Positions 26,229-61,458 of a stretch of 64,000 nt of DNA are shown here, one piece after another. The notes below the pieces were generated by a model that saw nothing but the letters and a program-made list of their open reading frames with translations, was not told the DNA's origin and searched no databases. The position numbers and the translations under genes were made by a program. Location of the stretch: IMG/VR virus record IMGVR_UViG_3300045017_000165, positions 1 through 64,000 of that record; one strand, given 5' to 3'. How positions within the stretch are numbered: position 1 is the stretch's first letter; each line of letters begins with the position of its first letter. This stretch comes from a virus.

Positions 26229-27536
26229 ATGGACAGAATAGTTATAATAAAGAACAACCGAACTTCTGCTGCTGTAGTCTACGAGGGTCAGGAAATAGCT
26301 GCAGAGTCTTCTTACACTATTCAGACAGATGGCGAACTTCTCCGCTTCGCGGGTTGTACCTCGTTAATTCACGACTTGACCGAAGACTCACCACAAACGG
26401 TAATCAACGACGGGTCGAGTGATTTATCCGCAGTTCAGGGAGTGAATTGGCTAACGGGTAACACCGATAAACGTAACAAGGAAGGTGTTCAACTCGTAGA
26501 TATGGTGCTCAGACGGGGACAGCCCGGAGACGATGGATTTACGATAGTTTCTCATGACCTCACTGATCGCACCACTTGGTATCAGGCTTCGGTCCGCGTT
26601 TCTGACTGCTCACTAGTAGATTCTGGAGATCACCTCACTTTTCAGGCAGAGGAGGGAAAGCGCCATTGGGTCAATATTTACTCGAGAAAATTGACTATAG
26701 ATCACAACAAGATCTTACTAAAAGACGGAACACTAGCGAAAGAAGAGGACTTTGCAGTTGTAGTAAAAGTTGATGGAGTCGTAACCACGGAAGGATTTAC
26801 TATCGACTTTACTACAGGGTCAATCACGTTTAGTTCGTCGCAAGAAAACAAAACAATCACCGCAACCTTTAATCACAATGACGTTGACGATGCCTCTAAC
26901 TTCATCGTTAGACCGGTGTCTAACTGCAAATATTTGGTAGAGCACGTAGAAATTCAGTTCTCCAAAAACATGTCGTTTAACGATTCCCATATTCAATTTG
27001 AGGTTTGGGCGGGGGATCCCTCCTACTCTTACTATGGTTCCTACTCAGATGAGATGTTCCACTATGCGTGGGGACAACATGAAAACGTATTATTTAGGGC
27101 GGTCTCTGAAGGCTTGGCGTGGACTATTGCGGCTGGTACGCAAGGAGTCTACGTCCCATTTGACGGTAGTAGTACGATCAGTGCCATTGTCTCTGCTTGG
27201 AACACCTCTAATCCGGACCTAGCTATTACCTGCCTTGGAGATGACTCTCAAGTTCTTGCCGCAGGAGGACTATTTCTTATCGGCGGGTTTGGTCAAATGC
27301 GCACCAGGTACCGCGGAATGCGAGACCTTATCAACTGGTGTAATAATCAATACCCAGTCATCCCGGCGTGTGGTGAACTTCAATATGACATAATGTGCTT
27401 CCCTTTTAGGTACCTCGTTCCTGCCGAATTAAATCCTGCGCAAGGAGCCTTGGTTCGATTATTTAATAAAGACGATGTTGAGCTGACTGGTGAGATCGCA
27501 ACGATTACGTTTTATATGTTAAAGGTGGATCCTTAA
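26229..27536 (+). CDS. virion protein
   Basis: 435 aa with an internal VKVDGV...FTIDFTTGSITF segment seen in tail/baseplate proteins. Confidence 0.45.
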   Translation: MDRIVIIKNNRTSAAVVYEGQEIAAESSYTIQTDGELLRFAGCTSLIHDLTEDSPQTVINDGSSDLSAVQGVNWLTGNTDKRNKEGVQLVDMVLRRGQPGDDGFTIVSHDLTDRTTWYQASVRVSDCSLVDSGDHLTFQAEEGKRHWVNIYSRKLTIDHNKILLKDGTLAKEEDFAVVVKVDGVVTTEGFTIDFTTGSITFSSSQENKTITATFNHNDVDDASNFIVRPVSNCKYLVEHVEIQFSKNMSFNDSHIQFEVWAGDPSYSYYGSYSDEMFHYAWGQHENVLFRAVSEGLAWTIAAGTQGVYVPFDGSSTISAIVSAWNTSNPDLAITCLGDDSQVLAAGGLFLIGGFGQMRTRYRGMRDLINWCNNQYPVIPACGELQYDIMCFPFRYLVPAELNPAQGALVRLFNKDDVELTGEIATITFYMLKVDP

Positions 27537-27537
27537 G

Positions 27538-28359
27538 ATGAGAGCTTTCGTTTTATCTGGTGGTGGAGCTAAGGGGTCATTTCAAGCAGGAGTGCTGCTG
27601 CAGCTTTTTGAACAGGGAATTGTTCCAGACGCTTTCTTCGGCACTTCCGTCGGTGCCATCAACGCGCTCGGCTACGCCTACGGTGGGGCGGAAAAGCTGG
27701 TGAACTGGTGGCTTAGCGTTAAGGGGCGGGGGGACATACTATATCCGCACGGTATTCAGTGGCTTTGGAATTTCCATCGAATACTAGGGATTACAAACAG
27801 CGGTATATTTTCTACCGCACCACTTAGAAAAATCCTCCGCAACGCAGCAAGTGGAATAGAAACACCAATAGAGGCGGTAAGCTGCTTTGTGGACGTCAAG
27901 TCAGGCAAAACCAGCTACTGCTCTAACAAAACCAGCTCAACTGAGGACTTCGTGGACGCGGTGGTCTCCTCAGCCACTATACCCCTCATAATGGACGCCA
28001 ACCACTACACGGTTGACGGTGGTGTTAGAGAACAAACACCCCTCCAAGAAGCGCTAGACCGCGGCGCTACTGACGTTTATGTCGTGCTCTGCAACCCACT
28101 GCACGAAGATCCCGACCCGTGGAAACCTAAAGCTAAAGTATTCAAGTGGTTTGAAGTTCTCGAGCGCTGCGTGGACGACATCATGTGCCACGAGCTTTTC
28201 ATCAATGATCTGAAGGCACTTCTGAAGAATAAACCGCCGGGCGTCACCTTCCATGTTTACGCTCCCGACAGGCTTTGGATGCGCACAGTAGAGTTTGATC
28301 CGGCGAAAATACGAGACGCGATAGCCGCGGGTAAAGTCGCTAAACCTATTCAAATCTAG
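27538..28359 (+). CDS. patatin-like phospholipase
   Basis: LSGGGAKG glycine loop, GTSVG nucleophile, SATIP, and DGG catalytic Asp. Confidence 0.9.
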   Translation: MRAFVLSGGGAKGSFQAGVLLQLFEQGIVPDAFFGTSVGAINALGYAYGGAEKLVNWWLSVKGRGDILYPHGIQWLWNFHRILGITNSGIFSTAPLRKILRNAASGIETPIEAVSCFVDVKSGKTSYCSNKTSSTEDFVDAVVSSATIPLIMDANHYTVDGGVREQTPLQEALDRGATDVYVVLCNPLHEDPDPWKPKAKVFKWFEVLERCVDDIMCHELFINDLKALLKNKPPGVTFHVYAPDRLWMRTVEFDPAKIRDAIAAGKVAKPIQI

Positions 28360-28413
28360 GCAGTTACAGCTTGCCTATCGCAAGGTAGGTAGGCATGAGG
28401 TAAACTAGGGTTA

Positions 28414-31176
28414 ATGATAACAGCCACGGTAGGGTACCCAGCCCCAATAGATCTACAGTTAGATGATGGGGCAACGGACAGATACCCGAGAGCATACGTA
28501 TTCACCGATGCTGGGGTCTCTTTAGGAACCGTTGATCTAATTCACCAGGATAAGGGAGACTATACAGGGTTCTTTACCTTTTCTAGCGCCGGGTACTTTC
28601 TTGTACATTTTGTCACCTATCTAGATGCTGCGCGCACAATTGAAGACGTTGATTATACCCGTGACACCGATCTCTACAGGGCTACTATCACCACAGGGCT
28701 TTCTTGCGAGGATCTGGAAGCGATCGCCGATCATGTTTGGGATGAACCTGCTGAAGATCACATAACTCCAGGTTCTACGGGAGCCTACTTAGAAACCGCC
28801 ACCCATCCTGAAATCAACCTAGATTGTGTGGATCTCTCTCAAATAGCTGATGCTGTATGGGAAGAAGCAAAAGCAGGGCACACTACTCCAGATACTTACG
28901 GATATTACTTAGATACTACGGTTTCATCCCGAGCTTCTGAAATTACCGCAGCAGCTATAAAAGCGAAAACCGACCTACTTACATTCACAGGAACAGACGT
29001 CCACGCTGCATTTAGTCCCACCACGCAACAAGACGTAGCAGATAAGGTGTGGGATACCGCCATGGCTTCGCATACGGTAGCGGGGAGCTTTGGTGCAAAT
29101 GCTAATCTTATCGATGAGATTAAAACAGCTGTCGACCAGATTAATGTTGAGACAGACCCTACTCAAATAGCTGGCGCCGTGTGGGATGCAACAAGATTAC
29201 TTCACACAAACGCGGGTTCATTTGGAGAAGCCAATCAAGGGGTTGTCTCAGTAGCGCGCGCCAATAATCTCGATAATCTAAACGCTACCATTTCAAGTAG
29301 GGCGGCAGCCGCTACCGCTGTGTCGAATACCGACCTGACACTTGCCCGAATACAGAACCTAGATAACCTAGATATCGCAGTGTCGACGCGTGCCTCACAA
29401 GTAAGTATGGCGCTAGGGTTTGCGGCTGGAGCCAAAGATGCAACCGTTGCAAAAGACAGCACTGTCGCAAAAGAATCCACTCTTATCGCAATGAACAGTA
29501 CGTTGGTTAATATAGACAACGACACCACTCTATTAGAGTCCAGACTTACCGCTACGAGAGCTGCAAATCTCGATAAGTTAGATGTCAACGTTTCGACAAG
29601 GGCTACGCAAGCATCTGTCGACAATCTGTCGACAATCGTAGCTAAGGACGCAACCGTAGCTAAGGCTGCACAACTAGCCGCGCTTGACGCCAAGATCGGA
29701 ACTCCCGTTACAACGGTATCTGGGGACATCGCAGCAATCAAAACTACAGTGGATGCGGTAAGTACTGCTGTGAACACCTCTGGTGTGATGGTTAAGCCAT
29801 CAGAAAAAGCTGACATAGCTGACAGAGTTTGGGACGAGACGTTGAGCGATCATCTCGTTGCTGGCACTACTGGAGCTAAACTCGATTACCTCGATAACTC
29901 AACCGCAGTGCTTACGCCTGCAGATCTTAGCGCGATTGCAGACTCAGTATGGGACGAAAGCCTTGTAGGACACACGAGCTCGGGTTCTGCTGGCGCCAAC
30001 CAGAACCTCATCGATGAAATAGCTAATGATACTGCTGCTCTGGAAACACGAATCACCGCAGCCCGCGCAACTAACTTAGACAACTTAGACGTAGCTGTGT
30101 CGACTAGAGAAAGCGAAGCAAGTGCTGCAACTCGTTCAAGCGCTAACTTCATCGAACATAATCAAACCCAGACCGACATAGCTAATCTGCAACTCACTAC
30201 GAATAGCATCTCAACTAAAATCGGTAGTCCAATCACGTCTCTCTCTGGCGATATTGCGAGCGTTAAGGCTGATACGACAGCGATCAAAAGTAAAACGAAT
30301 AATCTTCCTTCTGATCCAGCAAGCCAATCAGCAGTTGACTCTAGGTTTAACACCGTCGATGCCACGACTGTAGCGACGCTAAACAATACCACTTTAATCA
30401 AAGTAAAAACCGATAATCTTCCAGCTGATCCAGCGAGTGAGAGTTCAGTTGTAGCTATTCCAACTAATCCAGTTCTAGTCACAGATCCGCGCCTATCAAG
30501 ACTCGACGTAAACGTATCTACAAGAGCCACACCTGCCGATCTCGCTAACCTCGCCACCAAGAACGACATTCTTCTGACCGAGGCTGCGATCATCGGTGGT
30601 ATTGATATTGTCGACGCTAAGGTAGATCAATTACCGACCAACGCTGAACTAACTGCAGCACTAGCTCCGATCGCTAAAGAGATCACACTACAGCAAGTGA
30701 AAGCTATTGTAGAAGCAATCCAAATCGCGCAGCTAACCGCGGAGCAAGTTTGGACATACGTAACTAGATCACTCACTGAACCAGTCACAACCGATTTAGA
30801 CCTAGCCCCACTTGCTAAGTCAACCGAGGTTAACGCGGCTAAAGCGGAAATACTCGATGCAATTCCTAAGCACGACATCGATATGACGACCGCGATTAAC
30901 CCCGATACCGACGAAATTGAAGTACAGGTGTGGATGGACTTGGATAACGCTACCATTGAGGATCCATTTAACGCTTCTATCTCCGTGTTCGATGGACTCG
31001 GAGCTCTTATTTTCAGCTCTCCAGTTTCTACAGATCACACTCCACAAGGGGTGTTTAGATTTATCAGAGGCAACGCAAGCGCGCTGCTAAGCCGCAATAA
31101 AACTTATGTCGTTAGCGCCACGATTACTCACGGAACTGAAACCTTACAAAAACTTAAATCCTTCGTGGTGTTCTGA
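28414..31176 (+). CDS. repetitive fibre-like virion protein (IADxVWDE repeats)
   Basis: Multiple IAD.VWD(E)...H...GS.G repeats and RA.NLD.LD..VSTRA repeats. Confidence 0.6.
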   Translation: MITATVGYPAPIDLQLDDGATDRYPRAYVFTDAGVSLGTVDLIHQDKGDYTGFFTFSSAGYFLVHFVTYLDAARTIEDVDYTRDTDLYRATITTGLSCEDLEAIADHVWDEPAEDHITPGSTGAYLETATHPEINLDCVDLSQIADAVWEEAKAGHTTPDTYGYYLDTTVSSRASEITAAAIKAKTDLLTFTGTDVHAAFSPTTQQDVADKVWDTAMASHTVAGSFGANANLIDEIKTAVDQINVETDPTQIAGAVWDATRLLHTNAGSFGEANQGVVSVARANNLDNLNATISSRAAAATAVSNTDLTLARIQNLDNLDIAVSTRASQVSMALGFAAGAKDATVAKDSTVAKESTLIAMNSTLVNIDNDTTLLESRLTATRAANLDKLDVNVSTRATQASVDNLSTIVAKDATVAKAAQLAALDAKIGTPVTTVSGDIAAIKTTVDAVSTAVNTSGVMVKPSEKADIADRVWDETLSDHLVAGTTGAKLDYLDNSTAVLTPADLSAIADSVWDESLVGHTSSGSAGANQNLIDEIANDTAALETRITAARATNLDNLDVAVSTRESEASAATRSSANFIEHNQTQTDIANLQLTTNSISTKIGSPITSLSGDIASVKADTTAIKSKTNNLPSDPASQSAVDSRFNTVDATTVATLNNTTLIKVKTDNLPADPASESSVVAIPTNPVLVTDPRLSRLDVNVSTRATPADLANLATKNDILLTEAAIIGGIDIVDAKVDQLPTNAELTAALAPIAKEITLQQVKAIVEAIQIAQLTAEQVWTYVTRSLTEPVTTDLDLAPLAKSTEVNAAKAEILDAIPKHDIDMTTAINPDTDEIEVQVWMDLDNATIEDPFNASISVFDGLGALIFSSPVSTDHTPQGVFRFIRGNASALLSRNKTYVVSATITHGTETLQKLKSFVVF

Positions 31177-55962: not shown

Positions 55963-56397
55963 TTACTCACTATCGGAAGACTCAGAGAGTTTAAGCTTCA
56001 TAAGTTCTTCGTCTAGTGTAGGAGCAGCTTCAAACCCTTCGATATTACCGCGCTTGTCGCAGCACTTACCTTTTGGTTTAGGTTCGTTTGGCGACAGCCC
56101 AACATATATACGAAGTGTTCGATACTTTTCCTCTGTATTGGCTTTATCTATGTTCAGATTTTTCAGTGCCTGTTCGAGCTCAGCTTTTTCAGCAATAAGA
56201 CGTTTTTCTCTCGCTTGAACTTCTTCAACGTCTATGTGAACAACGGCACCGCTTTTAGTGATAGCCATGCCAGGTTTAATGTGTTCTTCCTGCATAGCAT
56301 TTTCCATTGTGCGCATCTCTTTATACACTGGCTGAGATGCACACGCGCTTAGGATAACAAGAGACACTGACGCAACCATTAGTGTTATGTTTTTCAT
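55963..56397 (-). CDS. lipoprotein with coiled coil
   Basis: AGGAGG RBS, signal peptide and lipobox LSAC. Confidence 0.7.
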   Translation of the reverse strand: MKNITLMVASVSLVILSACASQPVYKEMRTMENAMQEEHIKPGMAITKSGAVVHIDVEEVQAREKRLIAEKAELEQALKNLNIDKANTEEKYRTLRIYVGLSPNEPKPKGKCCDKRGNIEGFEAAPTLDEELMKLKLSESSDSE

Positions 56398-56466
56398 AAC
56401 ATCCTCCTATTTGTTTCAGTTACTTGTTTAATTAACTCGACCTGACTGTGTTTAAATCTTTAATTA

Positions 56467-56512
56467 AGACGTACCAACGAGCTGATGAACAGCAGTACTC
56501 GTGGGTACGTCT
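56467..56512 (-). terminator. hairpin closing the 3' end of pentamer array 1
   Basis: AGACGTACC-A-ACGAG / CTCGT-G-GGTACGTCT (14 of 15 paired), 5 nt from the end of the array. Confidence 0.6.
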
Positions 56513-56517
56513 CATTT

Positions 56518-56770
56518 CACTACGACACGTCACTTGACATTACTTTAACCTCACGGAACTTTACCTTACTTCACATGACGGCACCACGACCATACTTTAC
56601 TCGACCATACGTTACCATGACTTTACTCTACTCAGCAGTACCATACGGTGCTTCACAGTACCCGCACGCCACTCGACTAAACGGTACCATACCTCCACAA
56701 CACAGAACGGCACAAAACCCCACCCCACATTACCAATACTGGACTGGACAGGACGACACATAACCCTTAC
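56518..56770 (-). ncRNA. periodic pentamer array 1 (RNA sense GY-NNN units); putative guide RNA array for the Cas7-like protein
   Basis: The + strand parses without gaps into 41 pentamers and 8 hexamers, all ending in RC (47 AC, 2 GC). Starts 27 nt after the stop of the RAMP gene. Confidence 0.8.
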
Positions 56771-56797: not shown

Positions 56798-57589
56798 TTA
56801 CGCAGATTCGATCGTGCACTTGAACTGTCCGTAGCCTGCGTTTCTCCACTGACCTAAGCCCGACACTCTTCCGTATGAGAAGAGTTTCTTTAGAGCTTCT
56901 TCAGTGAGCGGGGAATTCTCAAGCACGAGAAGTGTGAACTTGAGAGCGGCTCCGGATTCAATGCACTCGCTTTTAGCTACAGAGACGCGTGGACCTTGAG
57001 CTGTCATAGCTCTCAGTGAACGCTCACAGTACTTGATTGAGCCATCAGCACTCTTCATCACGTCTTTATCAAACGAGATGAATTGTTGCTCAATTGTTAC
57101 GTGTTGATTAATGATCGATTCCGTATAGCTTGCTGAGTTGAGGATCGTACCATTCTTTTTAGGAAGAGTACGAGCTACCGCTTCAGCAGCTGCTTTTAGG
57201 AATCCTTTAATCATGTGATCTCCGATACACGGCATTCCTGCCTTGTCGCGGAAGAACACTGTAACGCCTCGAAGTTCTTGCTCGTCGAGAGTTTCTTTTA
57301 AAGATTCGAGTTCACCTTTGATAGCAAGTTCGCGTTCTTCTGAGGTGAACTTTCTACCCACGAGAGTTTCAAGCTTATCGAGAAGCTTATCGGTTTCAAG
57401 TTTACCGCGCTCTTCGGTGATCTGTAGAGCTTCTAGGTACTTATTAATCTCAGCGTTGTAGCTACCTTTCTCTTGAATAAGCTTACGCTGCTTTTGAATG
57501 ATATGTTGTTCGTGAATCGACGGATCCGCCGGATTCGTGCCCAAAATGTCACGTGTGAATGACAAGACTACTTTATATTCTTTAAACAT
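56798..57589 (-). CDS. stand-alone Cas7/RAMP-superfamily protein
   Basis: N-terminal strand YKVVLSFTRDILGT, P.IGDHMIKGFLK.A helix, ERSLRA...RVSVAKSECI thumb region, and C-terminal G-rich loop YG...GLGQWRNAGYGQF. Confidence 0.8.
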   Translation of the reverse strand: MFKEYKVVLSFTRDILGTNPADPSIHEQHIIQKQRKLIQEKGSYNAEINKYLEALQITEERGKLETDKLLDKLETLVGRKFTSEERELAIKGELESLKETLDEQELRGVTVFFRDKAGMPCIGDHMIKGFLKAAAEAVARTLPKKNGTILNSASYTESIINQHVTIEQQFISFDKDVMKSADGSIKYCERSLRAMTAQGPRVSVAKSECIESGAALKFTLLVLENSPLTEEALKKLFSYGRVSGLGQWRNAGYGQFKCTIESA

Positions 57590-57610
57590 TTTAATACGCT
57601 TTCAAATAAA

Positions 57611-57650
57611 AGCGGTCACGCTCTACACTAGTTCATAGAGCGTGACCGCT
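57611..57650 (-). terminator. strong hairpin plus U-tract directly upstream of the Cas7-like gene
   Basis: AGCGGTCACGCTCTA/TAGAGCGTGACCGCT 15-bp perfect stem, followed by a T-rich tract on the - strand. Confidence 0.65.
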
Positions 57651-57661
57651 AGTTTTAGGTT

Positions 57662-57883
57662 TTACAGTACTTCTGGCTTAGATTTCTTGCCTGGCTTTTT
57701 ATTAGCTGCGGCAGGATTCTTAGCCGGTCTTCCACGCTTCTTTACGGTGCTTGGCGGCGTTGCATCGTCGTTAGCCATAAAGCGATCGTAAGCTTTCACA
57801 GCTACTGCGCCTGCTGCTGCGGAAGCGACGTAAGGAAGTGCTTTCTTAGTTACTGACCATACTGATGATAGAAAACCACTCAT
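57662..57883 (-). CDS. small basic protein with AT-hook-like KKRGRP motif
   Basis: AGGAGG RBS, amphipathic N-terminus and Lys-rich tail. Confidence 0.6.
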   Translation of the reverse strand: MSGFLSSVWSVTKKALPYVASAAAGAVAVKAYDRFMANDDATPPSTVKKRGRPAKNPAAANKKPGKKSKPEVL

Positions 57884-58407: not shown

Positions 58408-59223
58408 TTACTCGGCATTTATTGAGATACCGGTAGTACCTGTTAACGAGGTCATAAGTGCAGGATCTGAACTAAAGTCTACACTCGTCACTGTAGCTCC
58501 ATAGAACCCCGTGGGGGCAGCTATGTCTACACAGGTAGATGAGTCGTAGGCTTTATAGGATCTAACAGTCCTTGACATTATGTCGTTAGTTAAAGCGACA
58601 TAATATACACCGTTATTGTTCAGCAGGACTTTGAGCATAGACCCAGCATCAGGATCATTATGACCTGAGGTTAGTCGGTTAGTCCTGACCACAGGAGTTC
58701 CGACGCACCCCAAACTAGGGTAGTAGATACGGGCACGAAGTCCGTACTCACTACCGAACTCGTTCTTATTTATGTTGACTACGAACCCACCAGTAGTATG
58801 CCAAAACGCAATGCCAACTGCGCTTTGACTAATTAGAGTTCCCATTACAACACCGAGCGAGTTCCTTACTACGAACCGAGGAGCAGCTGTACCAGCAGGA
58901 CCCTGGGCACCTTGAGCGCCCTGAGCACCTGTAGCTCCAACCGCACCCGCAGCACCTGTAGCTCCTGTGGCGCCTTGTGGTCCTTGAGGACCTTGAGCGC
59001 CATTAGATACTACAGCAGTGTTACCGCTTGGATCTGTGATACGAACGCCGTCTGACAGCTGAGTAATGGTGATTGAACCAACACTCATACTTTCACCGAC
59101 GCTAAGGTTAGTAGCCGCACCGTCCACTGGCATGACTGTTACGGATTCACTTACACAACCTGAGAGAACAGCTACTGAAGTTACAATCAAACTACCAACT
59201 GACATCATCATGAGCTTATTCAT
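58408..59223 (-). CDS. collagen-repeat lipoprotein
   Basis: Lipobox VLSGC and about 12 Gly-X-Y triplets (GAQGPQGPQGATGATG...). Confidence 0.75.
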   Translation of the reverse strand: MNKLMMMSVGSLIVTSVAVLSGCVSESVTVMPVDGAATNLSVGESMSVGSITITQLSDGVRITDPSGNTAVVSNGAQGPQGPQGATGATGAAGAVGATGAQGAQGAQGPAGTAAPRFVVRNSLGVVMGTLISQSAVGIAFWHTTGGFVVNINKNEFGSEYGLRARIYYPSLGCVGTPVVRTNRLTSGHNDPDAGSMLKVLLNNNGVYYVALTNDIMSRTVRSYKAYDSSTCVDIAAPTGFYGATVTSVDFSSDPALMTSLTGTTGISINAE

Positions 59224-60903: not shown

Positions 60904-60924
60904 ACGATTCCTTCCCAATAACAA

Positions 60925-61458
60925 GTAACGTTACCGTACCTTACCTTACGAAACCCCAACGCAACGCTACTGAACTCCACATAACTATACCACCACACAA
61001 CATAATCACCACTACCGCGCAACACATTACATTACCCCGCCAAGACAGTGCATTACTTCACCGTACTAAAGCTAAGCCCTACCGCACAGTACCCTACCCG
61101 AACCGGTTTCTACCGGAACACAACACTACTAAACTTAACTACACCATACCGTCACGTTACATGACGAAACTGCACTGACGCAGTACATTGCTTTACCGAG
61201 ACTTTACTACACTCAACGACACTTCACGCTACCCAACCGTGACTTTACTGCACCCTACTACACATCACGATACCTCACTGTGGCTTTACCCCACGACACA
61301 CCACCCAATCAAACATCACCATACCGCACGGGACTCTACCGAGACGCTGCCATGCTGGACGTTACTTTGCCATAGCAATACTGCACAACACGTTACCCGA
61401 CCTTACCATAGCATCACCTTACAACACGAGACCTTGCGTCACTGTAGCATCGCAGTAC
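60925..61458 (-). ncRNA. periodic pentamer array 2 (GY-NNN units, ~100 units)
   Basis: Same NNNRC pentamer / YNNNRC hexamer grammar as array 1, with a few degenerate units. Begins at the stop codon of 61458..61709. Confidence 0.8.

What the first reader, a model, noticed from the sequence alone, without database searches (positions are those of the whole stretch)
56518..56770. Second-level punctuation: 6-nt units divide the arrays into crRNA-sized segments
The 5-nt phase slips by +1 at regular intervals. In array 1, hexamers end at 56523, 56549, 56590, 56621, 56667, 56698, 56739 and 56770 (spacings 26, 41, 31, 46, 31, 41, 31). In array 2 the spacings are mostly 21-41 nt, with one of 61. By my parse all 24 hexamers in both arrays begin with a pyrimidine on + (19 C, 5 T). 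On the RNA this is an extra purine giving RGY/GGY, whereas that position is unconstrained in pentamers. Inference: the hexamers mark guide boundaries (processing sites or filament caps), so each array holds multiple distinct guides of mostly 4-8 pentamers without any conventional repeat.
Basis: partly seen in the sequence, partly recalled or inferred. Interest (0 to 1): 0.85.

Follow-up and report, generated by a model that had tools for sequence, protein, structure and literature searches.

The report
Punctuated VIPR guide-RNA arrays, lake phage
The extra base after every six to nine five-base repeats is real and is shared by 83 related phage loci examined; it divides the guide-RNA arrays of a phage VIPR system (a CRISPR-related DNA silencer first described in 2026 preprints) into cassette-like units, so this is a clean new example of a known kind.

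Summary
Observation confirmed. Read on the minus strand, both arrays are runs of GUNNN units (56519-56770, 49 units; 60923-61458, about 103 units). One unit in about seven has six bases. The extra base, just before the next GU, is a purine in 22 of 23 hexamers against 64 of 126 pentamers (P = 2e-5). Hexamer spacing is far more regular than chance.

The gene just upstream (56798-57589, minus strand) has a Cas7/Csm3-like RAMP fold. Its C-terminal G-loop aligns with the published Vipr of phage SUSP1. This is therefore a VIPR system with YNNNG (NGY/NN) repeats.

In 83 of 84 homologous loci the same grammar holds: 16.9% hexamers, extra base G in 70-94%, spacing peaked at 5-7 units, junction motif G-Y-n-A-n-G|G-Y-A. 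In relatives, whole hexamer-bounded segments are shared, lost and duplicated. Two adjacent segments in the window's array 2 are diverged tandem copies.

The reading "hexamers delimit guide modules" is supported by evolution and statistics but not by RNA ends or targets. No significant target was found and no RNA data exist. The preprint's "staggered arrays" probably describe this layout. This scan has already reported the same punctuation on at least eight other genomes. New member of a known kind; moderate interest.

The parts
56798..57589 (-). vipr gene (P0001, 263 aa): RAMP protein with RRM core, helical bundle (about residues 23-107), thumb hairpin (about 187-210) and C-terminal G-loop GLGQWRNAGYG (244-254)
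   Evidence: Pfam RAMPs gives a weak hit at residues 217-257. The AF2 model has mean pLDDT 77. Foldseek PDB top hits are Csm3 and type VII Cas7 at E about 2e-7. hhalign against SUSP1 Vipr gives probability 75%, E 2.6e-5 over the G-loop region. There are 274 or more homologues and 559 viral loci.
57577..57605 (-). sigma-70-like promoter candidate just upstream of vipr
   Evidence: Consensus scan, 9 of 12 matches. Weak: shuffles give 2.3 such sites.
57611..57650 (-). strong intrinsic terminator (17-bp stem plus U-run) that closes the upstream gene and isolates vipr and array 1 as their own unit
56519..56770 (-). array 1: 49 GUNNN units in 7-8 segments. Hexamers lie at 56765-70, 56734-39, 56693-98, 56662-67, 56616-21, 56585-90 and 56544-49 (56518-23 is ambiguous). 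The array starts 27 nt after the vipr stop and opens with a hexamer (GUAAGG).
56465..56514 (-). stable hairpin directly after the last unit of array 1: terminator or 3' tail-like cap
   Evidence: RNA fold -31.7 kcal/mol, z = -3.1
60923..61458 (-). array 2: about 103 units of the same grammar, with 16 hexamers and 3 irregular units, 3.3 kb from vipr between small genes
61197..61278 (-). two adjacent 41-nt segments (7 pentamers plus hexamer each) that are diverged tandem copies; both end in GUAAA-GUC(A/U)CG
   Evidence: TRF finds period 41 at 79% match. 62% of variable positions are identical.

Best explanation
The window carries a VIPR system. The minus-strand gene 56798-57589 encodes a Vipr-type RAMP. 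Both arrays are its vrRNA genes, transcribed on the minus strand as N-G-U/N-N pentamers (the YNNNG variant of the published YNNGG repeat).

By analogy with the SUSP1 structures, one Vipr protomer sits on each pentamer. It hides G-Y and presents the next two bases to read double-stranded DNA with one skipped base per unit.

The six-base units are module boundaries. At each one an extra G restores a full GGY and shifts the register by +1. This cuts array 1 into 7-8 cassettes and array 2 into about 17, each of mostly 5-9 units.

Inferred mechanism: the +1 spacing breaks the 5-nt protomer-to-protomer register. The filament is therefore interrupted or re-nucleated there, or the RNA is cut there. 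Each cassette then acts as a separate guide of about one helical turn.

Shown here: the grammar, its conservation and its cassette-like evolution. Inferred: the filament break or RNA processing, and the independence of the guides.
For: Identity as VIPR:
- RAMP fold and G-loop.
- C-terminal homology to SUSP1 Vipr, with W178/R179 kept (W248/R249) and D177, which contacts G1, replaced by invariant Q247. This fits the loss of the first G in the repeat (residue roles from bioRxiv 10.64898/2026.04.26.720927).
- An array lies next to the gene in 83 of 84 homologous loci.
- YNNNG and WGT/NN repeats are already reported for VIPR.

Punctuation in the window:
- Purine bias P = 2e-5.
- Regular spacing P = 5.5e-4 for array 1.

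Punctuation across the family:
- 1440 hexamers among 8538 units, inserted base G in 70-94% of cases per locus, gaps peaked at 5-7 units with CV 0.34 against about 1 for random placement.
- Constrained flanks: A at hexamer position 4 and A at position 3 of the next unit.

Boundaries behave as cassette edges:
- 128 exact segments are shared between loci in mosaic order.
- L025 to L041 differ by a deletion of four whole segments, and L040 carries a duplication of four whole segments.
- Breakpoints cluster at junctions: 56% and 51%, against about 30% expected.
- The window's array 2 holds a diverged tandem copy of one whole 41-nt segment.

Other points:
- Canonical SUSP1 vrRNAs have no such slips and use a 3' tail instead.
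- The Vipr filament has six subunits per turn free and five when bound to DNA, close to the modal segment length.
Against: - No RNA data exist, so neither transcription strand nor ends are measured.
- No natural target was found above chance, so independence of the segments is untested.
- Segments of 5-9 units specify only 10-18 target bases under the published two-bases-per-unit rule. That is fewer than the 9-16 repeats of tested vrRNAs.
- About 45% of inter-strain breakpoints lie away from junctions.
- No accessory (vap) gene was recognised beside vipr.
- Sequence homology to a published Vipr covers only the C-terminal 50 residues at 75% probability.
- The text of the preprint does not say whether its 'staggered arrays' are this +1 grammar, and its figure is not held.
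Confidence: 0.6

Rival explanations
1. The hexamers are internal features of long guides. They would be a hinge or once-per-turn register correction inside a continuous Vipr filament, with target reading continuing across them. They would then not separate guides.
For: The spacing mode of 5-7 units equals the five to six subunits per helical turn of the SUSP1 filament. Single segments are short compared with the 9-16 repeats of proven vrRNAs. No tails or ribozymes separate the segments.
Against: Spacing varies (4-9 units in one array) rather than being fixed. SUSP1 filaments of 12 subunits need no correction. Segments are exchanged, lost and duplicated as independent cassettes in different orders; that would scramble a continuous guide.
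Confidence: 0.2
2. The extra G is a neutral scar of how arrays grow, by tandem duplication or recombination at a short junction repeat, and has no role in RNP assembly or processing.
For: Block duplications and deletions end at junctions. Loss of the G fuses two segments without obvious harm, as in the 15-unit segment of L084.
Against: The identity of the base (G in up to 96%), the flanking A preferences and the narrow spacing are kept across Vipr proteins only 28-50% identical, with either GU or GC anchors. That implies selection.
Confidence: 0.12
3. The tracts are not guide RNAs at all. They would be a DNA-level protein-binding or structural repeat, or a chance periodicity.
For: No expression data exist for this DNA.
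Against: The tract is linked to a RAMP gene on the same strand in 83 of 84 loci. Published small-RNA sequencing and co-purification exist for homologous systems. No other such tract occurs in 64 kb.
Confidence: 0.03

Closest known systems
VIPR type II of Escherichia phage SUSP1 (Vipr plus vap1 plus four vrRNAs; bioRxiv 10.64898/2026.04.26.720920 and 10.64898/2026.04.26.720927)
   Same: Phage-borne stand-alone RAMP with G-loop G-x-G-x-W-R. Pentanucleotide arrays lie beside the gene on the same strand, and a second array lies at a distance. The variable dinucleotide follows G-Y.
   Different: The SUSP1 protein has 195 aa, against 263 aa here. SUSP1 repeats are strict YNNGG, 12-16 per vrRNA, with no register slips, and each is closed by a roughly 40-nt pseudoknot tail. 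Here the first G is free, the arrays run for 50-100 units without tails, and a +1 unit recurs every 6-9 units. No vap gene was recognised.
VIPR 'staggered arrays with overlapping vrRNAs' and alternative YNNNG/NNNNG repeats (fig. S18 and Methods of 10.64898/2026.04.26.720920)
   Same: [quoted passage not shown] This is most likely the same architecture.
   Different: The text gives no hexamer, extra-G or spacing rule, and says this architecture was not confirmed by small-RNA sequencing. The figure could not be read here, so identity is presumed rather than verified.
Non-canonical VIPR arrays (WGT/NN, TGH/NN) found by a genomic language model (bioRxiv 10.64898/2026.10.21.760802)
   Same: A 5-nt period, G-T anchored units, and a Vipr-like fold next to the array.
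   Different: Those are described as about 10 repeats per element. No punctuation is mentioned.
Class 1 CRISPR Cas7/Csm3 backbone on crRNA, and CRISPR repeat-spacer arrays
   Same: RAMP fold; one protomer per fixed RNA step; a thumb that interrupts pairing; arrays that evolve by gain and loss of whole units between short conserved junctions.
   Different: The step is 6 nt with five contiguous pairing bases. Repeats are long (about 30 nt), with Cas6 processing and cas1-cas2 acquisition. None of these is present here.

Membership tests
VIPR system (Vipr plus vrRNA) | Protein is a RAMP with RRM core, glycine-rich loop and thumb | tested here: met
   The AF2 model has a beta-alpha-beta-beta-alpha-beta core, a long hairpin at 187-210 and a G-loop at 244-254. 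Foldseek gives Csm3 and type VII Cas7 hits at E about 2e-7. Pfam RAMPs matches the G-loop weakly, E 0.03.
VIPR system (Vipr plus vrRNA) | Sequence homology to a published Vipr | tested here: inconclusive
   hhalign of the family profile against SUSP1 Vipr gives probability 75%, E 2.6e-5, over only the last 50 residues. tblastn of P0001 does not reach SUSP1.
VIPR system (Vipr plus vrRNA) | Tandem pentanucleotide array (YNNGG or YNNNG/NNNGG/NNNNG) flanking the gene, same strand | tested here: met
   Array 1 starts 27 nt after the stop codon and array 2 lies 3.3 kb away. The same arrangement holds in 83 of 84 homologous loci.
VIPR system (Vipr plus vrRNA) | Non-CRISPR context (no CRISPR repeats, no other cas genes) | tested here: met
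   No CRISPR-like repeats appear in the TRF output for the window. There are no Rfam hits in 54-64 kb. Neighbouring ORFs have no Cas family hits.
VIPR system (Vipr plus vrRNA) | Accessory vap gene beside vipr | tested here: not met
   The neighbours are a lipoprotein-like ORF (55963-56397) and a 73-aa basic ORF with a weak AT-hook hit (57662-57883). Neither is recognisable as a vap. The preprint says loci 'typically' have a vap, so this is not strictly defining.
VIPR system (Vipr plus vrRNA) | vrRNA is expressed and bound by Vipr | not testable with these tools
   No RNA run holds this DNA.
VIPR system (Vipr plus vrRNA) | Targets follow the one-base-skip rule (NNx) | tested here: inconclusive
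   No self-target was found. IMG/VR and genome scans gave either nothing or a chance-level hit. The composition of the two bases after G-Y (purine-rich, then A-rich) resembles codon positions 1 and 2.
VIPR 'staggered array' architecture | Adjacent vrRNAs abut without tail or ribozyme, the end of one marking the start of the next | tested here: inconclusive
   The sequence fits: there are no tails and no Rfam ribozymes. However, the defining figure (S18) is not held and RNA ends are unknown.
CRISPR-Cas class 1 | Repeat-spacer array with roughly 30-nt repeats, Cas6-type processing and an adaptation module | tested here: not met
   The period is 5 nt, not 60-79 nt, and no cas neighbours are present.

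The most novel reading that the evidence does not exclude
The extra-G register slip would be the functional counterpart of a CRISPR repeat reduced to one base. Under this reading it stops one Vipr filament and seeds the next. A single uncut transcript would then carry a string of one-turn mini-filaments, a polyvalent silencer. Recombination at these junctions would be the primitive form of spacer-array evolution. No VIPR preprint text read here states this.
Probability: 0.3. Interest if true: 0.6.

Novelty: new member of a known kind. Interest (0 to 1): 0.35.

Why it matters
VIPR was described only in 2026, and its experiments cover tail-capped vrRNAs of phage SUSP1 and a few other types. The tail-less arrays seen here are the common form in the 84 metagenomic loci examined. 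They reach 50-330 units per locus, and the preprint says this architecture was not confirmed by small-RNA sequencing.

A simple rule for splitting such arrays into guides (extra G, motif G-Y-n-A-n-G|G-Y-A, every 5-9 units) would allow guide annotation and target prediction across these phages. It also gives a concrete handle, one base, for testing how Vipr filament length is set. For this window alone the result is a well-documented example, not a new principle.

Tried and rejected
- **Phage database.** BLAST of the locus, near and distant modes, found no match.
- **Rfam.** No family matched in 54-64 kb.
- **PHROGs and Pfam on neighbours.** Only a collagen-like tail fibre was recognised.
- The four contigs carrying the identical protein could not be compared.
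- **Metagenome scan.** Only 3 loci were found, at 48-60% identity.
- **Sequencing runs.** No RNA holder is listed. All ten holders are lake-water DNA runs, four of which may be the source.
- **Laying four partial holders.** This gave short low-depth contigs with no indels and six substitutions in the arrays, all at variable positions. One turns a hexamer's extra G into U, but at depth 2.4. This is too thin to use.
- **Self-targeting.** Searching the 84.7-kb genome gave nothing above shuffles.
- **All-against-all decoding.** I decoded 84 arrays against 1 Mb of fetched loci under nine pairing rules. An apparent signal for the published rule (39 against 2 decoy hits) was one low-complexity guide of L043 matching 6-nt tandem repeats, and was rejected. 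One extension script timed out.
- **Exact IMG/VR scans of decoded long segments.** The window's 12-unit segment, L080 and L004 gave 0 hits. The genome collection also gave 0.
- **The 9-unit segment of array 1.**
  - It hit two contigs of one phage family (18 of 18 bases, in frame, skipped bases at wobble positions).
  - No extension past either hexamer was seen at offsets -1 to +3.
  - An 86% relative matched 17 of 18.
  - Two composition-matched decoys gave 0 contigs and 13 contigs in about 3 families.
  - The target phage has 55.5% GC against 45.7% here.
  - No other guide hits that family above replicated-homologue noise.
  - I treat this as chance level.
- **Not attempted.** Complex prediction of Vipr oligomers was not tried, because assembly depends on RNA.

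Full report
**1. The observation**

On the plus strand the tract 56519-56770 reads NNNAC repeated. On the minus strand it reads GUNNN.

A dynamic-programming parse of the minus strand gives 49 units for array 1: 42 pentamers and 7 hexamers. The eighth, at 56523, lies at the 3' edge of the array and is ambiguous.

Array 2 (60923-61458) has 84 pentamers, 16 hexamers and three irregular units. These two tracts are the only 5-nt AC-periodic regions in the 64 kb window.

The base that makes a unit six long, the one just before the next GU, is G 16, A 6, U 1. The same position in pentamers is unbiased (A 34, C 26, G 30, U 36). Fisher tests give P = 1.8e-5 for purine and 3.6e-5 for G.

Spacing is under-dispersed against random placement. 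Array 1 gaps are 6, 8, 6, 9, 6, 8 units (P = 5.5e-4). Array 2 gives P = 0.0055.

**2. What the locus is**

The minus-strand gene 56798-57589 ends 27 nt before array 1. It is preceded by a strong terminator (57650-57611) and a weak promoter-like site.

Its 263-aa product has no PHROG hit and only a sub-threshold Pfam RAMP match on the C-terminal glycine-rich loop. An AlphaFold model built from 22 homologues (pLDDT 77) shows an RRM-like core, a helical insertion, a long beta-hairpin and the G-loop. Foldseek places it with Csm3 and type VII Cas7 at E about 2e-7.

A full-text search found bioRxiv 10.64898/2026.04.26.720920, which describes the following:
- VIPR systems: phage-borne ancestral RAMPs (Vipr) with vrRNAs made of 9-16 YNNGG pentamers and a 3' tail.
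- DNA recognition through the NN bases with one skipped target base per unit.
- Seven types, and alternative repeats NNNGG, YNNNG and NNNNG.
- 'Staggered arrays with overlapping vrRNAs', which were not confirmed by small-RNA sequencing.

GUNNN is YNNNG in that register: N-G-U followed by N-N. A second preprint lists WGT/NN arrays next to Vipr-like folds.

I fetched the SUSP1 genome and found its locus (vipr at 28474-29061, minus strand). Its four vrRNAs are strict YNNGG runs with tails and no register slips.

A profile of the window's family aligns to SUSP1 Vipr over the last 50 residues (probability 75%, E 2.6e-5). This pairs W248/R249 with W178/R179, and invariant Q247 with D177. According to the cryo-EM preprint, D177 reads the first G of GGY while W178 and R179 hold the second G and the pyrimidine. 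Loss of D177 fits a repeat whose first G is free.

**3. The punctuation is a property of the family**

A pattern search returned 559 viral loci with relatives of the protein. I kept 80 of them, plus 3 metagenome loci. Nearly every locus has its strongest 5-nt autocorrelation next to the gene.

A cyclic hidden Markov model was trained separately on each locus. It had five unit states, one insert state and a background state. Results:
- It finds an array on the gene's strand in 83 of 84 loci.
- There are 8538 units, of which 1440 (16.9%) are hexamers.
- The inserted base is G in 70-94% of cases per locus, whether the anchor is GU (13 loci) or GC (71 loci).
- Gaps between non-pentamer units peak at 5, 6 and 7 units (401, 383 and 208 of 1425). 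The CV is 0.34, whereas a geometric model predicts 259 gaps of length one against 31 observed.

Around the slip the variable positions are no longer free. Hexamer position 4 is A in 52-74%. The extra base is G in 84-96%. Position 3 of the next unit is A in 59-76%. The junction therefore reads G-Y-n-A-n-G|G-Y-A. In the window the form GUAAA-GUCNCG recurs.

Each lineage has its own modal segment length: 8 units in L084, 6-8 in the window, 5-6 in L002 and L003.

**4. Do the hexamers bound evolutionary units?**

I cut every array at its hexamers, which gave 1053 distinct segments. Of these, 128 recur exactly in more than one locus. Related phages carry them in mosaic orders.

Clear cases:
- L041 equals L025 minus four whole consecutive segments.
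- L040 carries a tandem duplication of four whole segments present once in L037.

At nucleotide level, ends of shared blocks fall within the junction unit in 56% (left ends) and 51% (right ends) of non-redundant events, against about 30% expected. The rest lie elsewhere.

In the window itself, two adjacent 41-nt segments of array 2 (61238-61278 and 61197-61237) share 62% of their variable positions, and TRF reports a 41-nt period. In L084 a 15-unit segment is a copy of an earlier segment that has lost its extra G and fused with its neighbour.

**5. Do the hexamers bound functional guides?**

This could not be settled.
- No RNA run holds the DNA. The holders are lake-water metagenomes. Partial holders add only a few low-depth substitutions at variable positions.
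- Decoding by the published NNx rule gives no self-target.
- An all-against-all search among the fetched loci gave one spurious low-complexity signal.
- Exact scans of IMG/VR with long decoded segments gave nothing for three guides, and nothing in the genome collection.

The 9-unit segment of array 1 matched one phage family perfectly. The match lies in frame in the gene after the major head protein, with skipped bases at wobble positions. There is no extension into either neighbouring segment at any offset. That is what the boundary model predicts.

However, composition-matched decoys returned 0 contigs and 13 contigs in about three families. The candidate phage also differs by 10% in GC, and no other guide converges on it. 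I count this as chance level.

**6. Mechanism**

In SUSP1, one protomer binds each repeat. Two neighbouring protomers share each GGY. The filament has six subunits per turn when free and five when bound to DNA.

An added nucleotide between two G-Y anchors must disturb that protomer-to-protomer register. The simplest reading is that the filament ends or restarts there, or that the exposed junction is cut. This would give guide modules of about one turn.

The main rival is that the slip is a hinge inside a longer guide. It is favoured by the shortness of the segments. It is disfavoured by their variable length and their free reshuffling.

A neutral-scar model is disfavoured because the base, the flanks and the spacing are kept across proteins only 28-50% identical.

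**7. Novelty**

The system is known from 2026 preprints. The YNNNG and WGT repeats are also known. The tail-less abutting arrays are mentioned there as 'staggered', without a stated rule and without RNA confirmation. I could not read that figure.

Earlier reports of this scan describe the same punctuation on at least eight other genomes. The window is therefore a new member of a known kind. The quantified grammar is a useful annotation rule that still needs RNA-end data.

Noticed in passing
window 56465-56514 (-): A stable hairpin (-31.7 kcal/mol, z = -3.1) follows the last unit of array 1 directly. It may be a terminator or a tail-like 3' cap for the final guide.
   Followed up: partly
window 57662-57883 (-): A 73-aa ORF upstream of vipr, separated from it by a strong terminator. 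It has a hydrophobic N-terminus and a basic C-terminus containing KKRGRPAKNP, with a weak AT-hook hit. It could be a DNA-binding accessory, but this is unproven.
   Followed up: partly
window 55963-56397 (-): The 144-aa ORF downstream of array 1 starts with a signal peptide and a lipobox-like LSAC, so it is a likely lipoprotein and not a recognisable vap.
   Followed up: no
window 58408-59223 (-): A collagen-like tail-fibre gene with 9-nt tandem repeats (58920-58997) lies between the two arrays.
   Followed up: no
L086 1579-1604, L087 185-210, L090 6192-6218: A gene just after the major head protein of a 55.5% GC phage family matches the decoded 9-unit guide of array 1: 18 of 18 bases in two contigs and 17 of 18 in an 86% relative. 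The match is in frame with skipped bases at wobble positions and stops at both hexamers. Decoy scans show this is within chance.
   Followed up: yes
L085 (Escherichia phage phiSUSP1 KT454805) 27480-29530 (-): In three of the four canonical SUSP1 vrRNAs, the last YNNGG repeat is followed by one extra G before the tail (UGUGG-G-UGG, UAUGG-G-UAG). This resembles the extra G that closes segments in the tail-less arrays.
   Followed up: no
L084 6801-7425: The closest array-bearing relative (60% protein identity, 33% GC) has a modal segment of 8 units. It also has one 15-unit segment made by duplication plus loss of the extra G.
   Followed up: partly
L008 3414-5110; L065 6568-7902: Some relatives carry very long arrays: 328 units in L008 and 259 units in L065, which comes from a 172-kb contig. 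Both use the same grammar.
   Followed up: no
window 56701, 56704, 56719, 61079, 61145, 61150: Substitutions seen in other lake-water runs all fall on variable positions of the units. The change at 61150 would turn a hexamer's extra G into U. Depth is only 2-2.4, so these may be errors.
   Followed up: partly
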